A DNA stretch of 64,000 bases from a phage: sequence record PZ386972.1, one strand, 5' to 3'. The notes beneath the pieces are model-generated. The model saw nothing but the letters and a program-made list of their open reading frames with translations. It did not search any database and was not told the origin of the DNA. This document shows positions 2,477 through 30,749 of the stretch, in pieces; positions within the stretch are counted from its first letter, which is position 1, and each line of letters opens with the position of its first letter. The position numbers were made by a program, and so were the translations under genes.

Positions 2477-3095
2477 AACAATACTCCTGTGTTGGAAATG
2501 AAATAAGTTTTCTTTAGGACTATTCAGAAAGAATAGAACAACTGTTACTGTCAATTTCTCAACAAATTAATTGCAAATACTGAAGTGGGGTGGCAACTTC
2601 CACTTTCACGCTGCGCTGCTGCTTTGCTATATCGCACAAATCCTTGAGGATGGCCGCTAAGCCAGATTTGCTCACCTAATGCTTCATATACTAGCTCATA
2701 CTAGATGCAATATAACTTACAGAATCACGTCTCGGAGTTTTTCACTCCTCCCGTCTCACTTCACAACCACCTCTATCTAGGTTGCTTCGAGGCCTTACCA
2801 GGGTTCCTACGGGACGCAGATCGCTAAGTATTCTATTAACTATTTGTTTAAAAACTAACACGTAACAGTTAAAACAACCCTTAATGTGGCAGCCTAACTG
2901 TTCCGTATCGCGGATTGTAAACAAGAAAAATTAGCAAAATCAATTTTTACTAATGTCTCTCAATTCAATATAAATATTATACCAAGATTTTGGGCATCAT
3001 GCAAGTAAAATTTTCCGGATGGTGCTATCATTGGTCTTAAGTACGGATAAAACCGAGCCAAAATGACTCGGTAATCAGAGTTCAGCTAATAAAAA
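2477..3095. other. about 620 nt non-coding spacer, GC-richer than flanks, no ORF of 60 aa or more
   Basis: Only short ORFs in six-frame track; several local inverted repeats visible. Confidence 0.4.
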
Positions 3096-3488
3096 TCATT
3101 CATCATTTAATCCTGGAACATAGATCCCAACACGATTTAATTGTTCTTTAGCTTCTGCGAGAATATCTGGAGTGTACTCCCAAATATCGTCTTCCACCTG
3201 TAAAAGATGGGAAGAACAACCATCATGCGGCACACGACATATGGCCAAACCACGTGGATGGAACAAAGAGAAATTTAGGGCAACAATTAAACCCATAGCA
3301 GACAACTCATTCCAATCCAACTCCCATTCCCCCGCGTAGCCGGATAGGAAAACACCAACACAGGGATCATCTATTTGCTGCTCCGGAAAAGTGAAGGAGG
3401 CTTGTCTTACCCCCAACCAACGTTGTAGCAGCTTCTCCGCACGTTTCACCAAACTAGGATCAATCTGACGCCAATATACTTGTTCCAT
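3096..3488 (-). CDS. hypothetical protein, paralog of the adjacent 3498..3926 gene
   Basis: ORF track; shares DDP/EAPC-G, MGL-ALN-LF-P and PGL motifs with neighbour. Confidence 0.5.
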   Translation of the reverse strand: MEQVYWRQIDPSLVKRAEKLLQRWLGVRQASFTFPEQQIDDPCVGVFLSGYAGEWELDWNELSAMGLIVALNFSLFHPRGLAICRVPHDGCSSHLLQVEDDIWEYTPDILAEAKEQLNRVGIYVPGLNDE

Positions 3489-3497
3489 TCTGCCTCC

Positions 3498-3926
3498 TTA
3501 AGCAGTTAAACCTGGGATCATATACCCGAAACGTCGAAGTTTCTGAATCCCATCATTTACTTCTTCCGGTGAGTAAGACCAACCGTAACGTTCATTAACC
3601 TGAAAACCAGGAGATTCACTAGTTTTATAGTTAACAACAAGGCGATGCTTAGCAGGCATAAACAGCTTATAGTTTAACGCAAAAACTAAGCCCATTTCAT
3701 CTAACTCTTTCCAGCCGACAATTTCTTCAAGACCCTCCTCTACCTGAACAATTAAACCAATACAGGGAGCCTCATCAATATCATCTTTAAAAGCAAAGGA
3801 GATTTCGTTATTCTCACACCATATTTTCAAAGAGTTAATAGCCTCATTATATAGGCTAGCTGGGAGAGTACGCCAAAAGTTAACCAAAATTGGGTTAGCT
3901 TCTTTAGAGAATACATTATTGAACAT
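3498..3926 (-). CDS. hypothetical protein, paralog of 3096..3488
   Basis: ORF track; tandem arrangement with 10 nt spacing; shared motifs with neighbour. Confidence 0.5.
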   Translation of the reverse strand: MFNNVFSKEANPILVNFWRTLPASLYNEAINSLKIWCENNEISFAFKDDIDEAPCIGLIVQVEEGLEEIVGWKELDEMGLVFALNYKLFMPAKHRLVVNYKTSESPGFQVNERYGWSYSPEEVNDGIQKLRRFGYMIPGLTA

Positions 3927-3928: not shown

Positions 3929-4435
3929 TTACACCTTAAATTGCTGTAAGGATTTACACATTTCAAGATCCGGACTAAATTCTAGCATATAGCTAACAGC
4001 TTTTAAATCTTGAAGATTTATCCCAGTCCTACCGTTGACTATAACCGTTGGATACTGATACATCATAGCACCCGCATCATCAAGCACACACCAATGTTTG
4101 AGCTTATGCTTTTCAACGAAGCGAAGAACAGAATTACCCCTAGATAATCCACCTCCAGTAAAATCCGTTGTACCAAGAAAGCGATCGATAAGACCTAATC
4201 CGGTCATAATCTGAACGTTCTCCATCTCATTTCTAACAGAGAACCAAGATGATACCCCAACAATCATTATTGGGGAAGGACGAATAAAGTCCTGAAAAGC
4301 CTTGAGAAGTGGTTTGAAAACCCAGTCACTTCCAAAGAAAATCTTTTCATCATCAGGTGCATGATGGTGGGAGATGCTCGAATTGAGCACCCCATCAATA
4401 TCTAGAAAAATAATTGGAGTATTACTTATTTCCAT
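3929..4435 (-). CDS. HAD-superfamily phosphatase (nucleotidase-like)
   Basis: N-terminal FLDIDGVL motif (DxDxV/T) typical of HAD hydrolases. Confidence 0.5.
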   Translation of the reverse strand: MEISNTPIIFLDIDGVLNSSISHHHAPDDEKIFFGSDWVFKPLLKAFQDFIRPSPIMIVGVSSWFSVRNEMENVQIMTGLGLIDRFLGTTDFTGGGLSRGNSVLRFVEKHKLKHWCVLDDAGAMMYQYPTVIVNGRTGINLQDLKAVSYMLEFSPDLEMCKSLQQFKV

Positions 4436-4604
4436 TTTTGTTCCTTTCTAAGAACGTATCATACTCAACCGTATCAACATATATAACACCATAGTCATCG
4501 GATTTATAGTCCATTTCCCACAGCTCACAGCGATAGCACCAACTACCATCAGCCCATACAAATATATCATCGGGATGTGTATAAACAGATTTAACTATGG
4601 ACAT
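4422..4604 (-). CDS. small hypothetical protein with WCYR motif
   Basis: ORF track; motif DIFVWADGSWCYR shared with next ORF. Confidence 0.35.
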   Translation of the reverse strand: MSIVKSVYTHPDDIFVWADGSWCYRCELWEMDYKSDDYGVIYVDTVEYDTFLERNKNGNK

Positions 4605-4780
4605 ACCTGTTTCTCCTCATCTCCAGAGGAGAACCACATATTATCCGTAGTATAGATAATTTTATATGTGTATCCCAACCGTTTTCTTACACTAGGAAAC
4701 CTGTAGGCAAACCTATAACACCAAGTGCCAGACTCAGTTATAAAAATATCCCATTCATTATTTCTTGCTTCTCGACACAT
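4595..4780 (-). CDS. small hypothetical protein with WCYR motif (paralog of 4422..4604)
   Basis: ORF track; motif DIFITESGTWCYR. Confidence 0.35.
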   Translation of the reverse strand: MCREARNNEWDIFITESGTWCYRFAYRFPSVRKRLGYTYKIIYTTDNMWFSSGDEEKQVCP

Positions 4781-5576
4781 AAGGTCTACCCTCTAAATGA
4801 GCTTCTACACGAGCAATAAAATCAGGATCACTGAAAGCATCTACCGCACCCTTACTCCAATAAGGGATACTACGTTCTTCCAGCTGGTACATCTCACTAC
4901 GAGTCATACCCTGATAGCCTGGCTCCGCTGCTAGGGCACTATCATAGTAGTTAACTACCATAAATTTCGCAGCAGTCCTATTAAGAACAGGAAATAATTC
5001 CCAGTAGAAGTTAATTACTTGGTTAGAGCAACCAACCACAACGATCATATCTTGGCTGGTAATACCATCAAAAACATTGTACATTTCTGCATATGCTGGA
5101 GCATGCTCTCCAAAGAAGATTACATTAGGTTTAACCCATTTATAATCATCTGGATCAATAGAAGTATATCCTACATCAATAACCAGTTTATTGCTACTAT
5201 TGTAGCTATCAGCTACAACAACCTCTTTTAAATATCCGTGAATGTGCAGAATGTCACTATGTGGAACGCCAGCACGCTCAATAAGGTCATCGACGTTGGT
5301 AGTCAAGTTTACTACTTGACCTGGATATTGTTTATACCATTCACCAATACGCAAATGCGCAAGATTGGGTTCAACAGTTTTTAGCTCTTCACGACGCTTG
5401 TTGTAAAACATATGGGTTTTATGATAAAAATTACCACGAAAGGCATGAATATTACATACTTCTTCTAGATCATAATCATCCCACAATGCTTTACCACTAG
5501 CAGTATCAGTACGAAAAGCTCGTACACCACTTTCAACACTCAAACCTGCACCGCTAATAATAATTAATCTACGCAT
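4758..5576 (-). CDS. Sir2-family NAD-dependent deacylase/ADP-ribosyltransferase-like protein
   Basis: N-terminal IISGAGLSVESGVRAFR matches the sirtuin GAGxSxxSGIxxFR NAD-binding signature. Confidence 0.65.
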   Translation of the reverse strand: MRRLIIISGAGLSVESGVRAFRTDTASGKALWDDYDLEEVCNIHAFRGNFYHKTHMFYNKRREELKTVEPNLAHLRIGEWYKQYPGQVVNLTTNVDDLIERAGVPHSDILHIHGYLKEVVVADSYNSSNKLVIDVGYTSIDPDDYKWVKPNVIFFGEHAPAYAEMYNVFDGITSQDMIVVVGCSNQVINFYWELFPVLNRTAAKFMVVNYYDSALAAEPGYQGMTRSEMYQLEERSIPYWSKGAVDAFSDPDFIARVEAHLEGRPYVSRSKK

Positions 5577-5790
5577 TTTTCACCTGTTCTCTGAAGTTTT
5601 GCCCAATACTGTCTAATAGCTCAGCTAATTCTTTATTGCCTTTCTCCGTTAAGGTATTAGCAATAACTTCTAGCATAGTAGCGCAGGATTCAACACCGTC
5701 CTTATAGCCAGCTTCCCATTGCTGCATTAATGCGTTTTCCAAAGCAGCGTTTAAACCCTTATCTGGTAGCATCGGCTTCGAGAATGCCAT
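5569..5790 (-). CDS. hypothetical protein
   Basis: ORF track, overlaps start of Sir2 gene by 8 nt (operon-like). Confidence 0.35.
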   Translation of the reverse strand: MAFSKPMLPDKGLNAALENALMQQWEAGYKDGVESCATMLEVIANTLTEKGNKELAELLDSIGQNFREQVKNA

Positions 5791-5977
5791 AAAGTTTCTC
5801 CTCTAGTTCCATAACACGATTTTCATAAGAGGCACGCAACTTTTCAATTGCCAGCGCACGCACTGTAACCTCATTAGAGTTAATAGCTAATTGGGCCAGA
5901 TCTTCTGTTTCCATACGTCCGTTGTAAATTAAGCGATATTTAAGATGTTTTACATTCTTCATAGTTTCTCCTCTCAA
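5759..5977 (-). CDS. hypothetical protein
   Basis: ORF track, RBS-like GGAGA upstream. Confidence 0.35.
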   Translation of the reverse strand: MRGETMKNVKHLKYRLIYNGRMETEDLAQLAINSNEVTVRALAIEKLRASYENRVMELEEKLYGILEADATR

Positions 5978-6060
5978 ATTTATAAATCAATTATACATAA
6001 GTTTTAGCTCGAAAGCAAATAAAATAAAAGCCAGGTCGACTAGCAACCCGGCTGATTAGC

Positions 6061-22029: not shown

Positions 22030-22101
22030 CGGGGTGTAGTCTAAGGGAGAGGCAGGAGTCTTCTAAATTCCTTTATGCAGGTTCGAATCCTGTCACCTCG
22101 G
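22030..22101 (+). tRNA. tRNA-Arg (anticodon TCT)
   Basis: Acceptor CGGGGTG/CACCTCG, anticodon loop CTTCTAA, T-arm GCAGG-TTCGAAT-CCTGT, encoded CCA. Confidence 0.7.
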
Positions 22102-22138
22102 CCAATTTTATTAACTGTAACTAAAACAAAGGAAATAT

Positions 22139-23086
22139 ATGTTTAATACTAAAAATATGAAAGAACTGACTTCTGAGCAGAAAGTAATTCGTACTATTAA
22201 ACGTTGGGGTATTGGTGCTGTAGTTGGTTTAGCAGGCTTGATTCTAGCCTTTAATTCATATACTATTGTTTCTGATGGTACGGTTAAAACTCAAACATTC
22301 CTGGGTAAAGTAGATCCTAATCCAGTATTGCCGGGTTTCCATCTTGTAAACCCGTTTGCATCTTTCGATACTTTTAGTACAAAAGATATTGCTGTAAAAT
22401 TAGATAAACTTCAGGTTCCTAGTCAGGATAAGTTTAAATCCACTGTTGACCTGACTGTTATGTTGCAATTTGATGGTTCTAAGGCACCGATTAACCGTAT
22501 TAACGCAGGTACTCAGGATCAGGCACTAGACAAGTATGTAACTGAAAAATTACTGTCTACTATTCGTGAGTTTGGTAAGTCTGTACCTAAAGCACAAGAT
22601 TTGTTTGATGCTAAAATTCAGGCTCAATTGCAAACTGCAATTCAACAGGAAGTTGAAGAGTATGCGCGCCCATATGGTTACACAGTTAAGCAGGTATTCC
22701 TTCAGGATATTACCTTGCCGCCAGTAATCATGGAACAGGTACAGAATACCAAAGTTCGTGAAGAGCAAGTTAATGCTGCGAAAGCTGAACTTGCTCGCGT
22801 TGAACAGGAAGCACAGCAAAAAGTTAAACAAGCAGAAGCAGATCGTGAAGCTCGTAACAACCAAGCTATTGCTAATGAACGTGACGCAGATGCTAAACTG
22901 TACGCAGCTAAGAAAGAAGCTGAAGCTAACGCCGCATTGCAACGTACCATTACTCCTGAAATGATTCGTTGGAAACAACTGGAAGTTGAAATGATCCGTG
23001 CTCAGAAGTATCAAGGTGGTGTACCTCAGACTGTGGTAGGTACTGGCTACGATGGTCAAATGATCATGGATATGCGTAATAAATAA
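22139..23086 (+). CDS. SPFH/band-7 (HflC/prohibitin-like) membrane protein
   Basis: N-terminal TM helix, SPFH-like core, C-terminal Ala/Glu-rich coiled coil. Confidence 0.55.
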   Translation: MFNTKNMKELTSEQKVIRTIKRWGIGAVVGLAGLILAFNSYTIVSDGTVKTQTFLGKVDPNPVLPGFHLVNPFASFDTFSTKDIAVKLDKLQVPSQDKFKSTVDLTVMLQFDGSKAPINRINAGTQDQALDKYVTEKLLSTIREFGKSVPKAQDLFDAKIQAQLQTAIQQEVEEYARPYGYTVKQVFLQDITLPPVIMEQVQNTKVREEQVNAAKAELARVEQEAQQKVKQAEADREARNNQAIANERDADAKLYAAKKEAEANAALQRTITPEMIRWKQLEVEMIRAQKYQGGVPQTVVGTGYDGQMIMDMRNK

Positions 23087-23110
23087 TACCCGCATGTAAC
23101 ATCTGAAGTA

Positions 23111-23146
23111 AGCCCTGCGTTTCCTGGAGAGCGCAGGGCTTTTCTA
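23111..23146 (+). terminator. rho-independent terminator
   Basis: AGCCCTGCG...CGCAGGGCT hairpin followed by TTTTC. Confidence 0.6.
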
Positions 23147-23182
23147 TATAATGTAATTATAAAACTAACTAGGAGATTAAAC

Positions 23183-23701
23183 ATGGGTGTTGATGAATTA
23201 ACACAGCATCTTCTATCTAGAGGATTTGATGCGGATAAATATCATTGCTGGTTAAGTCCGGAAGGATGGCTAACAGTCCCGTTGTATGATTTCTCTGGGA
23301 TGTTGAGGGGCTATCAAACTTATAATCCTTCTGCTCCAAAAGGTCATGGTAAGTGTCCCTTTGAAGCTAAATATTTTACCTATTCTACTACCCAGTGTGT
23401 ATGGGGATTAGAAACTCTCAATGGAGATGAAAAAGTAGTATTGATCGCTGAATCTGTATTTAAGGCAGTTGCGTTACATAATGCTGGTTATCCAGCCCTA
23501 GCAATGTTGGGTTCTTCTCCAGGAAAAGCGTTATTAAAGCAACTGAAATTATTACCTTTTAAATTGGTAGCTGTCGGGGATAACGATCCTGCGGGTGAAA
23601 AATTTGCTAGAAAATTAAACGGCTTTGTTTCTCCTGTAGATGTGGATGAGATGTCTACAGAAAACTTGAAAAATTTTCTTGCTATGAAGCTAAATTTCTA
23701 A
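23183..23701 (+). CDS. Toprim-domain protein
   Basis: Conserved acidic residues LIAESVFKA and VGDNDPAGEKFA resemble the Toprim E and DxD motifs. Confidence 0.4.
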   Translation: MGVDELTQHLLSRGFDADKYHCWLSPEGWLTVPLYDFSGMLRGYQTYNPSAPKGHGKCPFEAKYFTYSTTQCVWGLETLNGDEKVVLIAESVFKAVALHNAGYPALAMLGSSPGKALLKQLKLLPFKLVAVGDNDPAGEKFARKLNGFVSPVDVDEMSTENLKNFLAMKLNF

Positions 23702-23707
23702 TATAAT
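23679..23707 (+). promoter_or_regulatory. T5-type promoter overlapping the 3' end of the upstream CDS
   Basis: TTGCTA-17-TATAAT ending about 15 nt before tRNA-Ser. Confidence 0.5.
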
Positions 23708-23722
23708 ATATCTTATAAATTC

Positions 23723-23808
23723 GGAAGAATAGCATAACGGTATTGCAGCAGATTGCTAATCTGTCGGTTTGAAATATAGCCTTGTGGGTTCGATTCCCAC
23801 TTCTTCCA
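23723..23808 (+). tRNA. tRNA-Ser (anticodon GCT), class II
   Basis: Acceptor GGAAGAA/TTCTTCC, anticodon loop TTGCTAA, long variable arm, T-arm GTGGG-TTCGATT-CCCAC, CCA encoded. Confidence 0.8.
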
Positions 23809-23817
23809 CCAAATTCT

Positions 23818-23892
23818 GGTTCTCAAGCTCATATGGTATGAGCACCCGGCTCATAACCGGAAGGTACGTAGGTTCGAATCCTCGGGGAGCCA
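23818..23892 (+). tRNA. tRNA with CAT anticodon (Met or Ile2)
   Basis: Acceptor GGTTCTC/GGGAGCC with wobbles, D-arm GCTC...GAGC, anticodon loop CTCATAA, TTCGAAT T-loop (imperfect T stem), CCA encoded. Confidence 0.6.
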
Positions 23893-23914
23893 CCAAATTA
23901 AATAAGGACAACTA

Positions 23915-24103
23915 ATGGAATTATTCATAGTTTCTGTTAAATTTGCACAAGATAGAGAACGTTCGGATGAGTTTAAACAAGGGTACAGACTAGTAAAGGC
24001 TACATCTGAACTCCATGCTATGGACAAAGTAGTAGACTATATGTATAATGTAGAAGATGTTTACTACGTCAATGCTTTAGAAGCCTCAAAAGTAATTAAC
24101 TAG
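23915..24103 (+). CDS. hypothetical protein
   Basis: ORF track. Confidence 0.4.
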   Translation: MELFIVSVKFAQDRERSDEFKQGYRLVKATSELHAMDKVVDYMYNVEDVYYVNALEASKVIN

Positions 24104-24112
24104 GGAGACTAT

Positions 24113-24289
24113 ATGTCTAAGTTTCAAGAACTCAAGCAAGAGCTAGAAGAGTGTGCCTGCCCTGAGTGTAGGGGAATTGGTGAAAGTTCTGATGCAGAAG
24201 CAGGAGATACTTTTTGCAATATCTGGGTTTGCCCAAATTGCAGTGGTACAGGTATTAATCCTAACTGCGGTATTTCCCCTAGATATTGA
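24113..24289 (+). CDS. small Cys-rich (zinc-ribbon-like) protein, 58 aa
   Basis: ATG 24113; CxxC...CxxC pairs (CPECRG, CPNCSG); below track cutoff. Confidence 0.35.
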   Translation: MSKFQELKQELEECACPECRGIGESSDAEAGDTFCNIWVCPNCSGTGINPNCGISPRY

Positions 24290-24400
24290 ACGAGGGTAAC
24301 ACCTGTGAAACTAAAAGATTATTATATTGGTTGGTTTGTGGGACTAGTAGTAGGATTTTCACTAGGCTATAATATGTATCAACTAATAAACTGATTACAT

Positions 24401-24474
24401 GGGGGTGTAATCGAATTGGCATAGGTACTGGACTTAAAATTCAGGTTTTGTGGGTTCGAATCCCACCACCCCTA
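24401..24474 (+). tRNA. tRNA with TAA anticodon (Leu by anticodon) but class I architecture
   Basis: Acceptor GGGGGTG/CACCCCT, anticodon stem CTGGA/TTCAG, loop CTTAAAA, 5-nt variable loop, T-arm GTGGG-TTCGAAT-CCCAC, CCA encoded; weak D stem. Confidence 0.5.
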
Positions 24475-24652
24475 CCAACTTAAGGAAATAAGATGTATAG
24501 ACATCCACCTCCGCCAACACGTCGTTCTAGAGAAGTTATCCTCATGGAATTGACGAAAAACTTCAAGGCAACTCTTGAAGATAGAGATCTAGGCACGGAT
24601 GAAGACATTGATTTTATTTGTAGACTATTAAAGATGAAACTGGAGAAACAAC

Positions 24653-24859
24653 ATGGCTAATCCTGAAATTACCGCACAACGTTTCATGCTTAAAGGCATG
24701 ATTGCTGAGGCAGGTATGACCCAAGAGGTTGCAGACTTTCATAAGCAATTTCTTGATATTATAACTCTAGCTAAAGAGACAGGAGAAAGAGAACACGGAG
24801 CAGCAATTATGGCTATATCTCTTATTAGCCTAGACTTAGCTGAAGAATCTGGAGTTTAG
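24653..24859 (+). CDS. hypothetical protein
   Basis: ORF track. Confidence 0.4.
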   Translation: MANPEITAQRFMLKGMIAEAGMTQEVADFHKQFLDIITLAKETGEREHGAAIMAISLISLDLAEESGV

Positions 24860-24889
24860 CTCCTCCAAACAGAATTTTTAAAAATGTAC

Positions 24890-24919
24890 TTGCCTTTTGC
24901 TTTAAATTTCTGGTATAAT
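24890..24919 (+). promoter_or_regulatory. T5-type early promoter
   Basis: TTGCCT-18-TATAAT. Confidence 0.55.
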
Positions 24920-24949
24920 AGTTATATAAATTGATGAAGGAGTTAACGA

Positions 24950-25225
24950 ATGCAAAATCGTGTTATAGCAACTGGTATTGAAAGTGCAATCTGTAAATCC
25001 TGGGAAGGCTGGGAAGGTGAGATTGAATGGCTTTATTTCTACGATGTAGAACTTCTGCCGGAAGTTAAAGCTAAATGTGTTGAAGCTGGCATGGCTCCAG
25101 ATGCAAAAGCTGATATTGATATTTCAATGTCTGAACTTAAAGGTCGTGTAATTACTGTTAGTGATGAGGGCGAAGAAGTTTTCGAACTTCCATTCTCCTT
25201 AACTGTCGCTCCTAAGTTCGACTAA
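24950..25225 (+). CDS. hypothetical acidic protein
   Basis: ORF track. Confidence 0.4.
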   Translation: MQNRVIATGIESAICKSWEGWEGEIEWLYFYDVELLPEVKAKCVEAGMAPDAKADIDISMSELKGRVITVSDEGEEVFELPFSLTVAPKFD

Positions 25226-25261
25226 CTAATACAGCACTGAGCAAGTTCTTTAAAATTTGAC

Positions 25262-25290
25262 TTGCTCAGTGCCATAAAACTTGATATAAT
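25262..25290 (+). promoter_or_regulatory. T5-type promoter; its -35 lies in the 3' arm of a long terminator-like inverted repeat
   Basis: CAGCACTGAGCAAG...CTTGCTCAGTGC inverted repeat at about 25232-25273, then TTGCTC-17-TATAAT. Confidence 0.55.
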
Positions 25291-25353
25291 AGTTATCTAA
25301 TTTGGAAACATATCTAAAAGTGTTTAAACTAGTATTTGAATACTTTTAAATAT

Positions 25354-25438
25354 GGGCGTTTATTCCGTAGATGGTAGCGGAGGGGATTGTAAATCCCTGG
25401 TCATTGCGACTCGAGTGGTTCGACTCCATTAACGCCCA
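25354..25438 (+). tRNA. tRNA-Tyr (anticodon GTA), class II
   Basis: Acceptor GGGCGTT/AACGCCC, anticodon loop TTGTAAA, long variable arm, T-arm GTGG-TTCGACT-CCAT, CCA encoded. Confidence 0.8.
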
Positions 25439-25459
25439 CCAAATTTAAAGGTAAAATAT

Positions 25460-25942
25460 ATGTACACTGATAGAATTGTTCAAGAAGCTGCAAACAGAGG
25501 TCTTATTGATCTGGGATCACCAGTTGATATAACTAAAGAGCTAATAACAGAGAGCCTTACGTTTGGCACAGCTAACTTTGGCCGAGATAGTAACCGTCGG
25601 TATAGCTTGAAACTATCAGCATTATCTTTTATTAAGTACAATAAGAGTATTGGAGAAAAATCAAGTTGTGGTTTTATCTACGCGATAACTAATCCAGCTT
25701 GGACTGATTATGTAAAAATTGGCATGTCTTCTGACCCAAAAACAAGATTAGCCAATTACCAGACATATTCTCCACTACGTGACTATAAGTTAATACATTG
25801 GTCATTTTGGTTTAATGCTAGAGAAGCAGAGAAAATGCTTCATAATAGCTTTCCAAAAAGAATTAATGAATGGGTAGTTTTGGACAGAAGTGTAGATGAA
25901 ACACTTGCTGATTTTAATAAACTATCTAATAAACAATTTTAA
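25460..25942 (+). CDS. T5orf172/GIY-YIG-like domain protein (homing-endonuclease-like) embedded in tRNA cluster
   Basis: GFIYAITNPAWTDYVKIGMSSDPKTRLANYQT matches the GIY-YIG-related T5orf172 signature. Confidence 0.5.
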   Translation: MYTDRIVQEAANRGLIDLGSPVDITKELITESLTFGTANFGRDSNRRYSLKLSALSFIKYNKSIGEKSSCGFIYAITNPAWTDYVKIGMSSDPKTRLANYQTYSPLRDYKLIHWSFWFNAREAEKMLHNSFPKRINEWVVLDRSVDETLADFNKLSNKQF

Positions 25943-25943
25943 T

Positions 25944-26015
25944 GCACCTATCATCTATCGGTTAGGACATCAGGTTTTCAACCTGAGAAGCTTGGTTCGA
26001 TTCCGTGTGGGTGTA
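25944..26015 (+). tRNA. tRNA-Glu (anticodon TTC)
   Basis: Acceptor GCACCTA/TGGGTGT, anticodon stem TCAGG/CCTGA, loop TTTTCAA, TTCGATT T-loop, CCA encoded. Confidence 0.7.
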
Positions 26016-26026
26016 CCAAATTCTGC

Positions 26027-26100
26027 ATTCCTAGAGTGTTACTGGACAGCATGTCGGTCTCCAAAACCGTACGGTCTAGGTTCGAGTCCTAGTAGGTTTG
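26027..26100 (+). tRNA. tRNA-Trp (anticodon CCA)
   Basis: Anticodon loop CTCCAAA, T-arm CTAGG-TTCGAGT-CCTAG, CCA encoded; acceptor stem has two U-U mismatches. Confidence 0.55.
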
Positions 26101-26109
26101 CCAAAATTT

Positions 26110-26181
26110 GCACCTTTAGCTGAGATGGATTAGCGCTTGCCTGAAGAGCTTGAGAGGTTCGTTCGATACGAACAGGGTGCA
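26110..26181 (+). tRNA. tRNA-Phe (anticodon GAA), tentative
   Basis: Acceptor GCACCTT/AGGGTGC, loop CTGAAGA, T-arm GTTCG-TTCGATA-CGAAC, CCA encoded; anticodon stem weak. Confidence 0.5.
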
Positions 26182-26201
26182 CCAAATTGAGGGAGCTGCT
26201 G

Positions 26202-26474
26202 ATGCATCCTGAAAACTTCTTTATTTACTGCGCGGATAAGTTGCTGAAACGTAGAATTAACAAAGTCTATCATTATCGTGCTAGTCAACAGCCTTATGTA
26301 TACGCTTTTGACGGTGATCACATCCCATTAGAACAACTATCTTGTGATTACATGATATTGAAGAACTTTGACGAGACAAAGATCTCAAGCGTTCATAATC
26401 GACAGAATCCCTTAACGTGGAAATATAAGAAGAAAAAGAAAGGCATCAAATTCTTAAAAAATGTAGTTGCTTAG
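26202..26474 (+). CDS. hypothetical protein
   Basis: ORF track (TTG 26187); ATG 26202 with GAGGGAG RBS preferred. Confidence 0.4.
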   Translation: MHPENFFIYCADKLLKRRINKVYHYRASQQPYVYAFDGDHIPLEQLSCDYMILKNFDETKISSVHNRQNPLTWKYKKKKKGIKFLKNVVA

Positions 26475-26495
26475 TTTCCAAAAGTTCTGTATAAT
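26467..26495 (+). promoter_or_regulatory. T5-type early promoter
   Basis: TTGCTT-17-TATAAT. Confidence 0.6.
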
Positions 26496-26523
26496 AATTA
26501 CATAAATTGAACTGGAGAAGCAA

Positions 26524-26811
26524 ATGAAACGATTAGTTAGATTTAAGTGTTGTGGTTCTGAACATATTTTCACACATCTTCGTGAATTTAAAATGTGTGA
26601 TTGTGGTAAATCAGGCTATGACTCAGGAGATGGGTTCTACACCCGTACTCTAGGGAACTTCAATGATCTAGAATTTGAAGATCTCGAAAAACAAGAAAAA
26701 GAATTATGTATCTGTTATGAATGTGGTGATCAAGATTACTACTCTAAAACAGGTAAGAAAGTGTGTAGCAATTGTGGTTCCGATCATGTAGCTACACATT
26801 ATGAAAGATAA
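26524..26811 (+). CDS. zinc-ribbon protein with four CxxC pairs
   Basis: CCGSEH, CDCG, CICYECG, CSNCG motifs. Confidence 0.45.
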   Translation: MKRLVRFKCCGSEHIFTHLREFKMCDCGKSGYDSGDGFYTRTLGNFNDLEFEDLEKQEKELCICYECGDQDYYSKTGKKVCSNCGSDHVATHYER

Positions 26812-26816
26812 TAAAC

Positions 26817-26889
26817 CGACCGTTGGCTGAATGGCTTAGGCGAAGGATTGCAAATCCTTTTTATGTGAGTTCAAATCTCATGCGGTCGT
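26817..26889 (+). tRNA. tRNA-Cys (anticodon GCA)
   Basis: Acceptor CGACCGT/GCGGTCG, anticodon stem AAGGA/TCCTT, loop TTGCAAA, T-arm GTGAG-TTCAAAT-CTCAT, CCA encoded. Confidence 0.75.
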
Positions 26890-26892
26890 CCA

Positions 26893-27044
26893 ATTTGCTG
26901 AAAGAATTGTTAAATCAATTCAGGCACGCGTAGGAACACTGTCTCCGTAATTGAAAGATGAGACACGGTTTGGAGAGGTATGCCGCTACACGCTACGGTG
27001 CTAACTCCGTCTAGGTGAAAATCCTAGTCAGCAATATAAATTTA
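26893..27044 (+). ncRNA. about 150 nt structured spacer between tRNA-Cys and tRNA-Asn (candidate small RNA)
   Basis: Hairpins such as GTCTC...GAGAC; no ORF. Confidence 0.25.
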
Positions 27045-27124
27045 GGGTCGTTAGCCAAGCGGTTTGGCGGTGGACTGTTAATCCATGTCGAAAGACAACG
27101 TAGGTTCGAATCCTACACGGCCCG
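27045..27124 (+). tRNA. tRNA with GTT anticodon (Asn) and unusually long 13-nt variable arm
   Basis: Acceptor GGGTCGT/ACGGCCC, D-arm GCCA...TGGC, anticodon stem GTGGA/TCCAT, loop CTGTTAA, variable GTCGAAAGACAAC, TTCGAAT T-loop, CCA encoded. Confidence 0.65.
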
Positions 27125-27229
27125 CCAAATTCTGTGTAGAGTTAAGTAAACCGGTAGCCAACCAGCTATCATTGCTGACATCGAATTCAGCCACAGATAC
27201 CATTTTCATTAATAACTGAGGAAACAAGC

Positions 27230-27415
27230 ATGTCCAAGAATGTAATTGCACAGTTAGAAGTTCATCGTGATAACACAGCTAATAACATTAAGTGCCGACA
27301 AAAAGATATTGAAGCTCAAAAGGCTGATCTTTTAATGAGTATTCGAGAGCTTAATGTACGAAAAGAGTTTCTTAAAGAACTTAATGCAGCTATTGAAAAA
27401 CTCAAAGCTGAGTAA
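27230..27415 (+). CDS. small coiled-coil protein
   Basis: ORF track. Confidence 0.35.
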   Translation: MSKNVIAQLEVHRDNTANNIKCRQKDIEAQKADLLMSIRELNVRKEFLKELNAAIEKLKAE

Positions 27416-27424
27416 ATGAATTAT

Positions 27425-27498
27425 GCGACCGGGGCTGGCTTGGTAATGGTACTCCCCTGTCACGGGAGGGAATGTGGGTTCGAATCCCATCGGTCGCG
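27425..27498 (+). tRNA. tRNA-Asp (anticodon GTC)
   Basis: Acceptor GCGACCG/CGGTCGC, anticodon stem CTCCC/GGGAG, loop CTGTCAC, T-arm GTGGG-TTCGAAT-CCCAT, CCA encoded. Confidence 0.8.
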
Positions 27499-27678
27499 CC
27501 AAATAAGGTAGGTTAGCTATGGAACGTAGGGAGTTTACTCCGGAAGAGATAGAGCAGATAAAAGAATCTGCTATGAAAAATGCTAGAATATCTCTGTCAC
27601 TGGAAGGTATCATTATAAGTGATGTAAACTTTGAAAAAATCAAAGCCATAGCTGATGAACTGGAAAAAGTAATTTAAT

Positions 27679-27751
27679 ACATCCATAGCTCAATGGTTAG
27701 AGCTACCGCCTCTTAAGCGGAGGGTTCTAGGTTCAAGTCCTAGTGGGTGTA
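27679..27751 (+). tRNA. tRNA-Lys (anticodon CTT)
   Basis: Acceptor ACATCCA/TGGGTGT, D-arm GCTC...GAGC, loop CTCTTAA, T-arm CTAGG-TTCAAGT-CCTAG, CCA encoded. Confidence 0.65.
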
Positions 27752-27780
27752 CCAAACTAAACTAGCACGAGAAATATGCT

Positions 27781-28128
27781 ATGATTAATGCTAAAGAAGA
27801 GTTGTTACTTGCCCTAAAGAATACTAAGTCTGAAGTTAAGTGTATTAAGATAGAATTCGGTTATTATGGGAACAAAGAAGTTTGGATATTACCCGTAGGT
27901 TATACAGAAAAAGATATTGAAGATTTTCTAAATAATCTAGACTTCAAATATGATTCTGGTTTCGGTGGACAATTGCTTTACGGTAACGTATGGTTTACTG
28001 ATGGAACTTGGTTAGAGCGTGGTGAATATGATGGTTCTGAATGGTGGGAGTATAAGACTACACCAGCAATCCCAGAAGAATGCCGAACAATTAATGGTGA
28101 AGTAGATCGTACTTTACTATTAAATTAA
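27781..28128 (+). CDS. hypothetical protein
   Basis: ORF track. Confidence 0.45.
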   Translation: MINAKEELLLALKNTKSEVKCIKIEFGYYGNKEVWILPVGYTEKDIEDFLNNLDFKYDSGFGGQLLYGNVWFTDGTWLERGEYDGSEWWEYKTTPAIPEECRTINGEVDRTLLLN

Positions 28129-28250
28129 CAAAATTTCAGTGCAGAACACGGAGCTAGCAATTCGGAAGTGCTGACTCATGATAGGCTGCCTATGTACTTG
28201 CGAAGCGGTCGTGTCCAAGACTCGGACTCTTGCACTGAAAACAATCAAAC

Positions 28251-28368
28251 ATTCTAGCGTGGTTGATGGGGAAACCAGCTTGGCTAGGGCAGAAGCTCGT
28301 TCGATTCGAGTGAAAGAATGGTTCTCGTAAGTCCGCACAAGTGATAACAGGTTCGAGTCCTGTCTAGA
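28251..28368 (+). ncRNA. 118-nt tRNA-like RNA: perfect 7-bp acceptor-like stem and canonical T-arm, no encoded CCA
   Basis: 5' ATTCTAG pairs with 3' CTAGAAT; T-arm ACAGG-TTCGAGT-CCTGT; internal second TTCGATT hairpin. Confidence 0.35.
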
Positions 28369-28383
28369 ATGACACTATAAAGT

Positions 28384-28494
28384 TTACTTATTATGTAGGT
28401 TCCGATAGATCGGCGGGTCTATTCTGGCATTTAAGAGAGGTCTCGCAAACTTCTTTGTCAGCCGTGGGGTTGATAGCCTCCAGGTGGCCTACAC
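28384..28494 (+). ncRNA. about 110-nt structured RNA closed by terminal helix
   Basis: 5' TGTAGGT pairs with 3' GCCTACA; internal hairpins; no ORF. Confidence 0.3.
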
Positions 28495-28520
28495 AATAAG
28501 TAAATTTATTAAAAATTCAT

Positions 28521-28549
28521 TTGCTATTCTGCTTAATTATCTGTATAAT
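28521..28549 (+). promoter_or_regulatory. T5-type early promoter
   Basis: TTGCTA-17-TATAAT. Confidence 0.6.
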
Positions 28550-28579
28550 ATATTTTATAAAGTGAGTTAACAAAATTAA

Positions 28580-28652
28580 CAGTGCGTAGCGCAGTTGGTA
28601 GCGTGGGAGCCTTGGATGCTTCGGGTCGCAGGTTCGAGTCCTGCCGCACTGA
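28580..28652 (+). tRNA. tRNA-Pro (anticodon TGG)
   Basis: Acceptor CAGTGCG/CGCACTG, D-arm GCGC...GCGT, loop CTTGGAT, T-arm GCAGG-TTCGAGT-CCTGC, CCA encoded. Confidence 0.75.
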
Positions 28653-28661
28653 CCAAACAAT

Positions 28662-28736
28662 TGCGGGTTAGATCTCTGGTAGAGATCGCTAGTCTCATAA
28701 GCTAGAAAGAGGTAGGTTCGATTCCTGCACCCGCTT
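28662..28736 (+). tRNA. tRNA with CAT anticodon (Met or Ile2)
   Basis: D-arm GATC...GATC, anticodon stem CTAGT/GCTAG, loop CTCATAA, TTCGATT T-loop, CCA encoded; 1-72 U-U mismatch. Confidence 0.6.
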
Positions 28737-28759
28737 CCATTTTAATAGAGGATTTCGAA

Positions 28760-28927
28760 ATGAAAGTATTTCGATTAGTAGTAAGTGACAAACGTTTAGG
28801 TAAGAATACCTCAAAATCCTTACTTGCTCATTATGGAAAAGATGAGAAAGAAGTAATGGCGGAGTTTGGGATTAATCACCCTTACTTGAAAGTTCACTCT
28901 ATTAAAGAAGTATATAATGGTTACTAA
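28760..28927 (+). CDS. small hypothetical protein (55 aa)
   Basis: ATG with GAGGA RBS between two tRNAs; below track cutoff. Confidence 0.3.
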   Translation: MKVFRLVVSDKRLGKNTSKSLLAHYGKDEKEVMAEFGINHPYLKVHSIKEVYNGY

Positions 28928-28928
28928 T

Positions 28929-29004
28929 AGATCGCTAGCTCAATAGGTTTAGTAGCATCCGACTTTTAATCGGAAGGTTCTGGGTTCGAGTCCCAGGCGA
29001 TCTA
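28929..29004 (+). tRNA. tRNA-Lys (anticodon TTT)
   Basis: Acceptor AGATCGC/GCGATCT, anticodon stem TCCGA/TCGGA, loop CTTTTAA, T-arm CTGGG-TTCGAGT-CCCAG, CCA encoded. Confidence 0.8.
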
Positions 29005-29026
29005 CCAATTTCAAGAAAAACGCAGT

Positions 29027-29054
29027 TGCTTGATGCTTAATTTCTTGTTATAAT
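29027..29054 (+). promoter_or_regulatory. T5-type early promoter
   Basis: TTGCTT-16-TATAAT. Confidence 0.55.
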
Positions 29055-29104
29055 ATTTATATAAATTGATGAGGATTTCTCCTCATCATAGTTCACTAAG
29101 GTAT

Positions 29105-29268
29105 TAGCTCGACCTAGGACTGGCTGCCAAAAAGCACGATCCCTACGATTCGGGAGAAGTTCTAGATTAGTCCACTAGATTCAGCGGCAACTGAATAGTG
29201 TATCGGGTTTGCGAGATGACGCGGTTCCTTCCGCTCGAAGCGAAGGTGCTGTAGTTACGCCGAGCTAA
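29105..29268 (+). ncRNA. about 165-nt structured RNA closed by TAGCTCG/CGAGCTA helix
   Basis: Long-range complementary 7-mers plus internal hairpins; no ORF. Confidence 0.3.
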
Positions 29269-29292
29269 TAGCCTTAGTAAACTAAAGAATTT

Positions 29293-29368
29293 GGGGAATG
29301 GGTCTGCATGGAGTGGACACCTCGCTTGCACCGAGGACATCAGAACGGTTCGATTCCGTTATTCTCCA
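29293..29368 (+). tRNA. tRNA-Ala (anticodon TGC)
   Basis: Acceptor GGGGAAT/ATTCTCC with G3-U70 wobble, anticodon stem CCTCG/CGAGG, loop CTTGCAC, T-arm AACGG-TTCGATT-CCGTT, CCA encoded. Confidence 0.75.
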
Positions 29369-29376
29369 CCAAATAC

Positions 29377-29450
29377 GCGTGATTGATGGAATTGGCATAC
29401 ATACCGTCCTTAGAAGTCGGGTTTTGAGGGTTCGAATCCCTTGTCACGCA
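29377..29450 (+). tRNA. tRNA with TAG anticodon (Leu by anticodon) but class I architecture
   Basis: Acceptor GCGTGAT/GTCACGC, loop CTTAGAA, 5-nt variable loop, T-arm GAGGG-TTCGAAT-CCCTT, discriminator A, CCA encoded; weak D stem. Confidence 0.5.
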
Positions 29451-29453
29451 CCA

Positions 29454-29565
29454 AATTTGATGGTCAGAGTAAATTAAACCTACTATCTCGGTTGAGCTGT
29501 TTTAATGGGTTCGAATCCCAGCGAGGCGTAACTGCCTGGCGTGATAGAGGCATCATCTTATTATT
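29454..29565 (+). ncRNA. about 110-nt segment containing an orphan T-arm-like hairpin (tRNA-like fragment or small RNA)
   Basis: TGGG-TTCGAAT-CCCA hairpin with no matching acceptor stem or CCA; AGGCGTAACTGCCT hairpin. Confidence 0.25.
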
Positions 29566-29653
29566 GGAAGAGCAAATCGAATTGGCGACGAAAACCGCTT
29601 GGAAAGTGGCTGACTGGTAAAACGGCTTGAGAGTTCAAATCTCTCCTCTTCCG
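29566..29653 (+). tRNA. tRNA-Ser (anticodon GGA), class II
   Basis: Acceptor GGAAGAG/CTCTTCC, loop TTGGAAA, long variable arm, T-arm GAGAG-TTCAAAT-CTCTC, CCA encoded. Confidence 0.7.
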
Positions 29654-29668
29654 CCAAACAATTTATAT

Positions 29669-29760
29669 GGTAGGTCAATCCAATGGCTGGCGCTGGACTC
29701 CGACTTGAAATCGGTTGATCGTAGTGATACGGTGTAAGGGTTCGATCCCCTTACCTACCT
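29669..29760 (+). tRNA. tRNA-Ser (anticodon TGA), class II
   Basis: Acceptor GGTAGGT/ACCTACC, loop CTTGAAA, long variable arm, T-arm AAGGG-TTCGATC-CCCTT, CCA encoded. Confidence 0.7.
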
Positions 29761-29764
29761 CCAA

Positions 29765-29910: not shown

Positions 29911-30014
29911 TGGCTCAAAGTGTAACGGTGCTATTTGATGCTCTTAGTAAGACTTTCCCGACATGCGTTCGGGAGTAAGCTGCTAAGGCTAGAATAGAAG
30001 AGTTTCTGAGAGCC

Positions 30015-30203: not shown

Positions 30204-30231
30204 CCAAATTAACTTAAATAGGAAATAAAAT

Positions 30232-30658: not shown

Positions 30659-30667
30659 TAGCATTCT

Positions 30668-30740: not shown

Positions 30741-30749
30741 CCAAACAAT

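What the first reader, a model, noticed from the sequence alone, without database searches (positions are those of the whole stretch)
4422..5576. Phage Sir2-family gene in an operon with two WCYR-motif mini-protein paralogs
The sirtuin NAD-binding signature GAGLSVESGVRAFR is clear. The gene overlaps two tandem 60-aa paralogs sharing DIF-x-G-WCYR and sits beside a HAD phosphatase. Sir2 domains are also effector modules of bacterial NAD-depleting defence systems, so a phage copy could act in NAD/ADP-ribose metabolism, host protein modification or counter-defence. The small paralogs could be partners or regulators.
Basis: partly seen in the sequence, partly recalled or inferred. Interest (0 to 1): 0.6.

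Follow-up and report, generated by a model that had tools for sequence, protein, structure and literature searches.

The report
Known T5 phage sirtuin–phosphatase early operon
This is the long-annotated Sir2-like gene of T5-type phages (T5.102); its conserved neighbour is a HAD phosphatase, not the two small proteins, and its function is still untested, the leading published prediction being NAD-dependent RNA repair.

Summary
A 272-aa Sir2 gene (4758-5576, minus strand) overlaps two 60-aa paralogues (4595-4780 and 4422-4604), and a HAD phosphatase follows (3929-4435).

The window is a Tequintavirus. These genes are the orthologues of T5 genes T5.102-T5.105, which are annotated in hundreds of phage genomes.

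The sirtuin keeps all its NAD-binding and catalytic residues, including the class III Tyr-x-x-Arg. It has lost the zinc-binding cysteines. It resembles CobB and SIRT5, not the Sir2 NADases of defence systems.

The small proteins are real genes under purifying selection, but they are not dedicated Sir2 partners:
- Their copy number between Sir2 and HAD is 0, 1 or 2 in close relatives.
- The family (PHROG 5116, about 232 clusters) also occurs in phages without Sir2.

The conserved partner in T5-like phages is the 'Swiss-army-knife' HAD phosphatase. In other phage lineages the same sirtuin clade sits beside RNA ligase, cREC and kinase genes. Iyer et al. 2022 already described this pattern and predicted a KptA/Tpt1-like role in RNA repair. 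I found no experimental test of it.

Verdict: already known, of modest interest. The open question is biochemical: RNA 2'-phosphate removal or protein deacylation.

The parts
6029..6053 (-). Rho-independent terminator of the upstream nrdD gene. It marks the 5' boundary of the operon.
   Evidence: Terminator scan: 10-bp stem with 6 GC pairs, followed by TTTATTTTAT. The homologous site is annotated as a terminator in T5.
5990..6018 (-). Probable early promoter of the operon: -35 TTGCTT (6018-6013), 17-nt spacer, -10 TATAAT (5995-5990).
   Evidence: Read from the sequence. T5 has an annotated promoter at the equivalent place upstream of T5.100. The consensus scan missed it because the -35 hexamer matches only 3 of 6. 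Inferred, not shown.
5759..5977 (-). Small early ORF (phrog_5236) of unknown function. The true start is probably the ATG at 5962, behind a GGAG.
   Evidence: The orthologue in APCEc03 is 204 nt.
5569..5790 (-). Small early ORF (73 aa, phrog_5827) of unknown function. Its stop overlaps the Sir2 start.
4758..5576 (-). Sir2-family protein, 272 aa, orthologue of T5.102. It is class III-like with an intact NAD and catalytic site, and the zinc ribbon is lost.
   Evidence: PF02146 at E=1.9e-24. CobB 1s5p at E=2.6e-17. AlphaFold2 pLDDT 90.6. Foldseek top hits are CobB, Sir2-Af and SIRT5. Invariant residues are G9-A-G11, S13, F21-R22, Y58, R61, T93-N94-x-D96, H113-G114, FFxE157, G182-x-S184 and N209; no Cys is conserved in 114-152.
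4595..4780 (-). Mini-protein 1, 61 aa, orthologue of T5.103. It is a divergent paralogue within phrog_5116.
   Evidence: phrog_5116 at E=1.8e-22. pN/pS 0.19. SD GAGGG 8 nt upstream of the start.
4422..4604 (-). Mini-protein 2, 60 aa, orthologue of T5.104. It is a canonical member of the widespread 'DDIxxWPDGTWCYR...MSDDY' small phage protein family.
   Evidence: phrog_5116 at E=6e-30. 232 representative clusters in 1.84 billion proteins. No Pfam model. AlphaFold2 pLDDT 69, three strands and a C-terminal helix. pN/pS 0.09.
3929..4435 (-). HAD-superfamily phosphatase, 168 aa, orthologue of T5.105. It is the conserved neighbour of Sir2 in T5-like phages.
   Evidence: PF18143 HAD_SAK_2 at E=4e-20. 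It follows Sir2 in 28 of 28 T5-like IMG/VR loci. It has no real similarity to Sir2, although RefSeq labels it 'Sir2'.
3498..3926 (-). DUF7415 protein a, 142 aa, orthologue of T5.106.
   Evidence: PF24187 at E=5e-36, two repeats. Conserved downstream of HAD in 27 of the 28 T5-like IMG/VR loci; L037 shows only the b paralogue.
3096..3488 (-). DUF7415 protein b, 130 aa, orthologue of T5.107. It is the last gene of the operon.
   Evidence: PF24187 at E=6e-31. About 32% identical to its neighbour.
3047..3072 (-). Operon terminator: hairpin ACCGAGTC-ATTTT-GGCTCGGT followed by TTTTAT.
   Evidence: Sequence. The hairpin is identical in T5, where it is annotated as a rho-independent terminator. The consensus scan did not report it.

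Best explanation
The locus is the T5-type early operon T5.102-T5.107. It is transcribed from its own promoter, between the nrdD terminator and a terminator after the second DUF7415 gene.

Its core is an NAD+-consuming sirtuin of a phage-specific, class III-derived clade. The NAD site, catalytic His113 and the Tyr58-x-x-Arg61 anion pocket are intact, and the zinc ribbon is lost. It is paired with a 'Swiss-army-knife' HAD phosphatase.

The most likely role is inferred from gene neighbourhoods, following Iyer et al. 2022, and has not been shown. It is healing of cleaved RNA, probably tRNA cut by host anticodon nucleases. By analogy with KptA/Tpt1:
- A 2'-phosphate oxygen, rather than an acyl oxygen, would attack C1'' of NAD+.
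- Nicotinamide would leave.
- The ADP-ribose 2''-OH, activated by His113, would then release the phosphate as ADP-ribose 1'',2''-cyclic phosphate.
- The HAD enzyme would remove remaining terminal phosphates or process the by-product.

T5-like phages have no RNA ligase of the types tested (RnlA/Rnl1). Sealing would therefore have to be done by a host ligase such as RtcB.

The two mini-proteins are not part of this machinery. They belong to a widespread family of small early phage proteins that occupies a variable insertion slot between Sir2 and HAD, where copies are gained and lost by recombination.
For: Identity and operon:
- The region is 98.6% identical to a Tequintavirus.
- Gene order is the same as T5.102-T5.107, with annotated promoter and terminators.

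Active sirtuin:
- Pfam match, CobB alignment, pLDDT 90.6 and class III structural hits.
- G-A-G-x-S, F-R, N94, D96, H113, FFxE, G-x-S and N209 are invariant across 34 homologues of 54-84% identity.
- Y58 and R61 align with the CobB 'YNAR' residues and are invariant.

Neighbourhood, using the 54 IMG/VR loci that encode this sirtuin clade:
- 28 loci have the HAD_SAK_2 gene next door.
- 11 loci have a metallophosphoesterase, RnlA-like RNA ligase and AAA_33 kinase, usually with cREC as well, immediately upstream.
- A 607-kb phage contig has a T4-type Rnl1 two genes upstream.
- The GenBank records of phages Mydo and Murica show the same arrangement.

Published and contextual support:
- PMC9503650 gives the same three neighbourhood types and the KptA-like prediction.
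- The phage carries 22 tRNA genes.

Mini-proteins as independent genes:
- Copy number is 0, 1 or 2.
- Deletion scars and hybrid proteins exist.
- Homologues occur in phages without Sir2.
- The family has 232 clusters, mostly stand-alone proteins of 45-100 aa.
Against: - No experiment on T5.102 or any member of this clade was found. The RNA-repair role rests only on gene neighbourhood.
- Phage gene order is inherited within lineages, so the 40 supporting loci amount to only three or four independent observations.
- A complete Tequintavirus genome has no homologue of the RnlA/Rnl1 ligases, cREC, kinase or phosphoesterase that accompany the sirtuin elsewhere. The pathway would be incomplete in exactly this phage group.
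- The closest relatives in sequence and fold are protein deacylases. The Tyr-x-x-Arg and FGE motifs are the ones that bind acidic acyl-lysine peptides in SIRT5 (my own knowledge of SIRT5/CobB).
- In T4-like phages the HAD homologue sits among DNA replication and nucleotide metabolism genes, without Sir2. It could be a nucleotide phosphatase.
- 12 of the 54 loci show none of the RNA-end enzymes tested.
Confidence: 0.45

Rival explanations
1. The sirtuin is a protein lysine deacylase, like CobB or SIRT5 (deacetylase, desuccinylase or lipoamidase). It would reset the acylation state of host or phage proteins early in infection. The HAD gene would be an unrelated nucleotide phosphatase that merely sits next to it.
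For: - The best sequence and structure matches are CobB, Sir2-Af and SIRT5.
- Catalytic His113, the FFGE loop and the class III Tyr58/Arg61 are invariant.
- HAD homologues occur without Sir2 in T4-like phages, among nucleotide metabolism genes.
- No RNA ligase of the tested types is present in Tequintavirus.
Against: - The Cys4 zinc module that shapes the peptide cleft in characterised deacylases is absent from the whole clade.
- The conserved Gln of TQNxD is replaced by Thr.
- Scores are far below the NCBIfam CobB cut-offs: 100 against 243 bits.
- Linkage to RNA-end enzymes recurs in several phage lineages.
Confidence: 0.3
2. The sirtuin is a protein or nucleic-acid ADP-ribosyltransferase that modifies a host target during takeover. 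This would resemble SirTM or the sirtuins proposed to modify DNA.
For: - Sirtuins can ADP-ribosylate, as reviewed in PMC9503650.
- The loss of the zinc module and the Gln-to-Thr change show a divergent substrate site.
- The gene is in an early operon.
Against: - No Macro or other ADP-ribose-removing partner is present in the operon.
- The protein is closest to class III deacylases.
- This reading explains neither the HAD nor the RNA-ligase neighbourhoods.
Confidence: 0.1
3. The phage Sir2 acts on NAD+ or ADP-ribose pools as an NADase, or as a counter-measure to Thoeris or DSR-type defence. The two mini-proteins would be its partners or regulators.
For: - Sir2 domains are NADase effectors in defence systems (general knowledge; PMC9503650).
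- The genes overlap and are probably co-translated.
Against: - No PADLOC defence Sir2 model matches.
- T5 encodes NAD-dependent DNA ligase genes, ligA and ligB. The T5-like phage TrudiRoth carries both the NARP3 NAD+ salvage pair (PMC13464706) and this Sir2. NAD+ depletion would therefore harm the phage.
- Mini-protein copy number varies from 0 to 2 among near-identical phages.
- The mini-protein family occurs in phages without Sir2.
Confidence: 0.07

Closest known systems
T5 genes T5.102-T5.107 (Escherichia phage T5, NC_005859) and their orthologues in Demerecviridae
   Same: Gene order, overlaps, promoter and terminators are the same. Protein identity is 95-99%. T5 itself has both mini-protein genes, T5.103 and T5.104.
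   Different: Only the small ORFs upstream of Sir2 differ. T5.100 is 126 aa in T5, whereas the window has ORFs of about 67 and 73 aa.
Phage 'RNA-repair' sirtuin clade of Iyer, Burroughs, Anand, de Souza and Aravind 2022 (Viruses 14:1977), neighbourhood type 3 (Escherichia phage SP15: sirtuin + SAK-like HAD)
   Same: It is the same clade and the same sirtuin-HAD pairing, with no Macro partner. I reproduced the type 2 neighbourhood (RNA ligase, cREC, kinase, phosphoesterase, MazG) independently.
   Different: The passages of the paper that I read do not mention the mini-proteins or the DUF7415 pair. The function is a prediction in both cases.
E. coli CobB / human SIRT5 (class III sirtuin deacylases)
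   Same: Shared features are the Rossmann NAD-binding motifs, the catalytic His, the Tyr-x-x-Arg pair and the FGE loop. Foldseek gives E about 1e-17 and TM 0.71-0.85.
   Different: About 24% identity. The Cys4 zinc site is absent, TQNID has become TTNVD, and there is an extra C-terminal segment of about 60 aa with two helices. Scores are below the NCBIfam cut-offs.
KptA/Tpt1 RNA 2'-phosphotransferase
   Same: This is only the proposed reaction logic. The enzyme uses NAD+, an oxygen nucleophile attacks C1'', and the ADP-ribose 2''-OH then resolves the intermediate (inference; PMC9503650).
   Different: The fold is unrelated (ART-like rather than a sirtuin Rossmann fold). There is no sequence relationship, and the activity has not been tested for any sirtuin.
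Defence-system Sir2 NADases (ThsA, DSR1/2, Sir2-HerA, SIR2-APAZ)
   Same: They share the Sir2 superfamily fold and use NAD+.
   Different: No PADLOC model matches. The protein is a single stand-alone domain with no sensor or partner domain. It is encoded by a lytic phage that has NAD-dependent DNA ligase genes.

Membership tests
Sir2/sirtuin superfamily (PF02146) | Rossmann NAD-binding motifs GAGxS, FR and (Q)NxD, plus the G-x-S and N that bind the adenosine ribose | tested here: met
   PF02146 at E=1.9e-24 over profile positions 1-178 of 180. G9-A-G11, S13, F21-R22, N94, D96, G182, S184 and N209 are invariant in 34 homologues. The usual Gln is Thr93.
Sir2/sirtuin superfamily (PF02146) | Catalytic histidine in the HG motif | tested here: met
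   H113-G114 aligns with the CobB 'HMHG' and is invariant.
Canonical sirtuin deacylases | Cys4 zinc-binding module in the small domain | tested here: not met
   There is no Cys between residues 114 and 152. No Cys is conserved there in any of the 34 homologues. The model shows three strands instead.
Class III sirtuins (CobB/SIRT5) | Tyr-x-x-Arg pair that binds an acidic acyl group | tested here: met
   Y58-N-K-R61 aligns with CobB Y-N-A-R. Both residues are invariant. That these are the SIRT5 Y102/R105 equivalents rests on my own knowledge.
Class III sirtuins (CobB/SIRT5) | Score above the curated family cut-off (equivalog) | tested here: not met
   The best NCBIfam match scores 100 bits against a cut-off of 243. 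prot_deacyl_CobB scores 89 against 320.
Class III sirtuins (CobB/SIRT5) | NAD-dependent lysine deacylase activity | not testable with these tools
   Needs enzyme assays.
Phage RNA-repair sirtuin clade (Iyer et al. 2022) | Phage-encoded stand-alone sirtuin without a Macro partner, in a conserved neighbourhood with RNA-end-processing enzymes (type 3: SAK-like HAD) | tested here: met
   HAD_SAK_2 lies two small genes downstream. It follows Sir2 in 28 of 28 T5-like loci. No Macro domain is in the operon. Sister lineages have Rnl, cREC and kinase next door.
Phage RNA-repair sirtuin clade (Iyer et al. 2022) | Removal of RNA 2'-phosphate with NAD+ | not testable with these tools
   Prediction only. 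No experimental paper was found.
Defence-associated Sir2 NADases | Match to ThsA, DSR, Sir2-HerA or SIR2-APAZ family models, or fusion or pairing with a sensor domain | tested here: not met
   No PADLOC hit at E<=0.01. All 120 listed homologues are single-domain proteins of 214-299 aa.
PHROG 5116 small phage proteins (the two mini-proteins) | Match to the family profile over its full length | tested here: met
   E=1.8e-22 (profile positions 2-55 of 56) and E=6e-30 (positions 1-56 of 56).
HAD phosphatases, HAD_SAK_2 (PF18143) | Profile match above cut-off, plus the catalytic DxD and DD motifs | tested here: met
   73 bits against a cut-off of 27.5, over profile positions 1-138 of 139. FLDIDGV and VLDDAG are present in the translation.

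The most novel reading that the evidence does not exclude
The T5-type sirtuin is the first sirtuin that works on nucleic acid. It would be a Tpt1/KptA-like NAD+-dependent RNA 2'-phosphotransferase, with the class III Tyr-x-x-Arg pocket re-used to hold a phosphate instead of a succinyl carboxylate. Together with the HAD phosphatase and a host ligase, it would let the phage repair tRNAs cut by host anticodon nucleases. Separately, the 'WPDGTWCYR' mini-proteins could be a large, unrecognised family of early phage host-takeover or anti-defence proteins.
Probability: 0.3. Interest if true: 0.7.

Novelty: already known. Interest (0 to 1): 0.3.

Why it matters
Sequence homologues of this sirtuin occur in about 1,000 sequenced phage genomes, and none has been characterised biochemically.

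If the RNA-repair prediction is right, it would add a new substrate class to sirtuin chemistry. It would also add a new counter-measure to the tRNA-cleaving defences that T5-like phages are known to face.

If instead the enzyme is a deacylase, it would be a case of a phage rewriting the host acyl-proteome.

Either way, T5 is a tractable model. The practical message from this check is that the gene to study alongside Sir2 is the HAD phosphatase, not the mini-proteins. The 'Sir2' label on the HAD gene in RefSeq is also an annotation error.

Tried and rejected
- The word-indexed protein search with mini-protein 2 gave only 5 hits, two of them recombinant chimeras. The exhaustive profile search and a profile-based search replaced it.
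- Pfam, NCBIfam and PADLOC have no model for the mini-proteins.
- The mini-protein model has only moderate confidence (pLDDT 69). The search against viral structures found only uncharacterised homologues and no informative fold. The afdb50 library was unavailable.
- PDB sequence searches for the HAD and DUF7415 proteins found nothing useful.
- I considered whether the RefSeq 'Sir2' label on the HAD gene reflects real homology. It does not: BLASTP gives E=0.18.
- I looked for an RNA ligase, cREC, kinase, phosphoesterase or MazG of the Vequintavirinae type, both in the window and in a whole Tequintavirus genome. None was found.
- I looked for experimental data on T5 Sir2 in essentiality and CRISPRi studies and in the general literature. 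None was found.
- The consensus scan detected neither the operon promoter nor the 3' terminator. Both were placed by reading the sequence and by homology to the T5 annotation.
- No co-folding of Sir2 with a mini-protein could be run.
Full report
**What is there**

On the minus strand, the ORF listing gives a run of overlapping genes:
- a 272-aa ORF at 4758-5576;
- two small ORFs at 4595-4780 (61 aa) and 4422-4604 (60 aa);
- a 168-aa ORF at 3929-4435;
- two further ORFs at 3498-3926 and 3096-3488.

The 272-aa protein begins MRRLIIISGAGLSVESGVRAFR. It matches Pfam SIR2 (PF02146) at E=1.9e-24 over almost the whole profile.

The two small proteins share DIF-x4-G-x-WCYR. Pairwise BLASTP sees only this motif (E=2e-5). 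Both match the same family profile, phrog_5116 (E=1.8e-22 and 6e-30), so they are true paralogues.

The 168-aa protein is a HAD phosphatase of the HAD_SAK_2 type (PF18143, E=4e-20). Its DxD and DD motifs are intact.

The overlaps are 23, 10 and 14 nt, and each downstream start has a Shine-Dalgarno sequence.

**Where it comes from**

The region is 98.6% identical to Salmonella phage vB_StyS-LmqsSP1, and 448 phage records match it, nearly all T5-like.

In phage T5 itself the same genes are T5.102 (annotated Sir2-like), T5.103, T5.104, T5.105, T5.106 and T5.107. They lie between a promoter just after the nrdD terminator and a rho-independent terminator. In the window:
- the nrdD terminator is at 6053-6029;
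- a TTGCTT-17-TATAAT promoter can be read at 6018-5990;
- the 3' hairpin at 3072-3047 is identical in T5.

The finding is therefore the orthologue of a gene that is annotated in the T5 reference record and carries a Sir2-type label in most related phage records.

**The sirtuin**

Sequence and structure:
- The closest solved structure by sequence is E. coli CobB (E=2.6e-17).
- A model built on 34 phage homologues is confident (pLDDT 90.6).
- Its best structural matches are CobB, Sir2-Af1 and SIRT5, which are class III sirtuins.

Conservation across 34 homologues of 54-84% identity:
- The NAD-binding and catalytic residues are invariant: G9-A-G11, S13, F21-R22, N94, D96, H113-G114, FFxE157, G182-x-S184 and N209.
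- Y58 and R61, which align with the Y-N-A-R of CobB, are also invariant. In SIRT5 these residues bind the carboxylate of succinyl-lysine (my own knowledge).

Three things set the clade apart:
- The Cys4 zinc site is absent from every member.
- The Gln of TQNxD is Thr93.
- Scores against the NCBIfam CobB models are far below their cut-offs (100 against 243 bits).

No PADLOC defence model matches. All 120 listed homologues are single-domain proteins from phage-sized contigs.

It is thus a divergent but apparently active sirtuin. It is not a relative of the Sir2 NADases of Thoeris, DSR or Sir2-HerA.

**The mini-proteins**

They are real genes. Among orthologues pN/pS is 0.19 and 0.09, the same range as Sir2 at 0.09.

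They are not dedicated Sir2 partners:
- Among 28 T5-like IMG/VR loci with Sir2 and HAD, 5 have no copy between them, so that Sir2 overlaps or directly precedes HAD. Nineteen have one copy and 4 have two, as do the window and T5.
- Some one-copy ORFs (L010, L019) start with the first codons of mini-1 fused to mini-2, which is a deletion scar.
- The database holds mini-1/mini-2 and p73/mini-2 hybrid proteins.
- Phage APCEc03 has an unrelated hydrophobic mini-ORF in the same slot.

An exhaustive profile search finds 232 representative clusters:
- Of the 148 whose sequences were inspected, 138 are 130 aa or shorter.
- The consensus is DDIxxWPDGTWCYRxELxEMxxMSDDYxV.
- One member is fused to an XRE-type HTH and one is a tandem duplication.
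- The few very long hits are repetitive proteins and are probably spurious.
- No Pfam model covers the family.

Homologues occur in phages without Sir2:
- Erwinia phage phiEa104 has one after its DNA polymerase gene. Its whole genome has no Sir2 or HAD.
- Three podophage-type contigs have one among strings of small early ORFs, with no Sir2 or HAD within 4 kb. One contig carries a PF00940 RNA polymerase and two carry SU10-type virion genes.
- The viral structure search adds Pseudomonas, Rhizobium and Salmonella phages.

The model of mini-2 is only moderately confident: three strands and a helix, pLDDT 69.

The most economical reading is a family of small early phage proteins that has landed in a variable slot. 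Their function is unknown.

**The conserved partners and the likely function**

In the 28 T5-like IMG/VR loci, HAD always follows Sir2. The DUF7415 pair then follows in 27 of them; L037 shows only one DUF7415 gene.

In Vequintavirinae and related phages the orthologous sirtuin (50-65% identical) sits immediately downstream of four genes, often with MazG nearby. This holds for 11 IMG/VR loci and for the GenBank records of phages Mydo and Murica. The four genes are:
- a metallophosphoesterase;
- an RnlA-like RNA ligase;
- a cREC domain protein (PF20274, 'cyclic-phosphate processing receiver domain');
- an AAA_33 kinase.

A 607-kb phage contig has a T4-type Rnl1 two genes upstream. In all, 40 of the 54 loci have an RNA-end-processing enzyme next to the sirtuin.

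Iyer et al. 2022 (PMC9503650) reported this pattern. They name the T5-like phage SP15 as the type of a 'sirtuin + Swiss-army-knife HAD' neighbourhood. They propose that this sirtuin clade removes RNA 2'-phosphates in the manner of KptA/Tpt1.

The chemistry is plausible by analogy (inference). In both reactions an oxygen nucleophile attacks C1'' of NAD+, and the ADP-ribose 2''-OH then attacks the acyl or phosphoryl centre. An anion pocket (Tyr/Arg) is conserved. The phage also carries 22 tRNA genes.

**Why this is not settled**

- I found no experimental work on any member.
- Gene order in phages is inherited, so the supporting loci represent only a few independent events.
- A complete Tequintavirus genome has no homologue of the ligases, cREC, kinase or phosphoesterase seen elsewhere. 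In T5-like phages the pathway would need a host ligase.
- HAD homologues occur without Sir2 in T4-like phages, among DNA and nucleotide metabolism genes.
- The nearest characterised relatives are protein deacylases.

I therefore rate RNA-end repair at about 0.45 and protein deacylation at about 0.3. Against the NADase idea, T5 encodes NAD-dependent DNA ligase genes. The T5-like phage TrudiRoth carries both an NAD+ salvage pair (PMC13464706) and this Sir2.

**Verdict**

This is a correct observation of an already known and already annotated module, with a published in-silico functional prediction.

The new points from this check are negative or corrective:
- The mini-proteins are not Sir2-specific.
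- The 'Sir2' label on the HAD gene in RefSeq is an error. The two proteins have no real similarity (BLASTP E=0.18), and the label appears to come from phrog_18062.
- T5-like phages lack their own RNA ligase of the tested types.

Interest is modest. It would rise sharply only if the sirtuin were shown to act on RNA.

Noticed in passing
window 3929-4435 (-); T5.105 in L061 17589-18095; L001 2430-2945: RefSeq and several GenBank records call this HAD phosphatase gene 'Sir2 (NAD-dependent deacetylase)'. The label appears to come from phrog_18062, a 92-position profile annotated Sir2 that matches the HAD C-terminus (E=6e-58). HAD and Sir2 have no real similarity (BLASTP E=0.18). A few depositors call it 'RNA repair protein'.
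   Followed up: yes
proteins P0004 and P0005; L010 6797-7006, L019 6797-7006: There are recombinant forms. P0005 is the mini-1 N-terminus joined to the mini-2 C-terminus at the WCY motif. P0004 is the N-terminus of the 73-aa upstream ORF joined to mini-2. Some one-copy ORFs (L010, L019) start with mini-1's 'MCRE' codons. This points to gain and loss of copies by recombination between the tandem paralogues.
   Followed up: partly
L001 2923-3108 (-), Escherichia phage APCEc03 gp030: A third, unrelated 61-aa ORF with a hydrophobic, membrane-like sequence occupies the same slot between the mini-proteins and HAD. The slot is therefore a hot spot for small-gene insertion.
   Followed up: no
window 3096-3926 (-): Two tandem paralogous DUF7415 proteins, about 32% identical and each with two copies of a 53-aa repeat, end the operon. 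They are conserved in T5-like phages. One relative annotates them as 'tail tube protein', which looks wrong. They have no PDB or NCBIfam match, and their function is unknown.
   Followed up: partly
window 22030-32428 (+): A cluster of 22 tRNA genes, typical of T5-like phages. It is relevant because it gives the phage RNA worth repairing.
   Followed up: no
window 5759-5977 (-): The mechanical ORF call starts at a TTG (5977). An ATG at 5962 preceded by GAGAGGAG is the more likely start, giving 67 aa as annotated in APCEc03. The small ORFs upstream of Sir2 differ between T5 (T5.100 is 126 aa) and this phage.
   Followed up: partly
L060 3582-6708 (607-kb IMG/VR contig): In a very large phage contig, an arginase-family gene (PF00491, E=9e-76) lies between a T4-type RNA ligase 1 gene and the sirtuin gene.
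   Followed up: no
L059 6713-7198: In a 279-kb jumbo phage contig, a nucleoside 2-deoxyribosyltransferase-like gene (PF15891, E=1e-33) directly follows the sirtuin. This is a different neighbourhood from the RNA-ligase and HAD types.
   Followed up: no
whole phage (not located in the window): A 2026 paper (PMC13464706) shows that the T5-like phage TrudiRoth (Bas30) carries a PnuC-like plus NadR-like NAD+ salvage pair, 'NARP3'. That phage also has the Sir2 and mini-protein genes. I did not check whether this window encodes NARP3.
   Followed up: no
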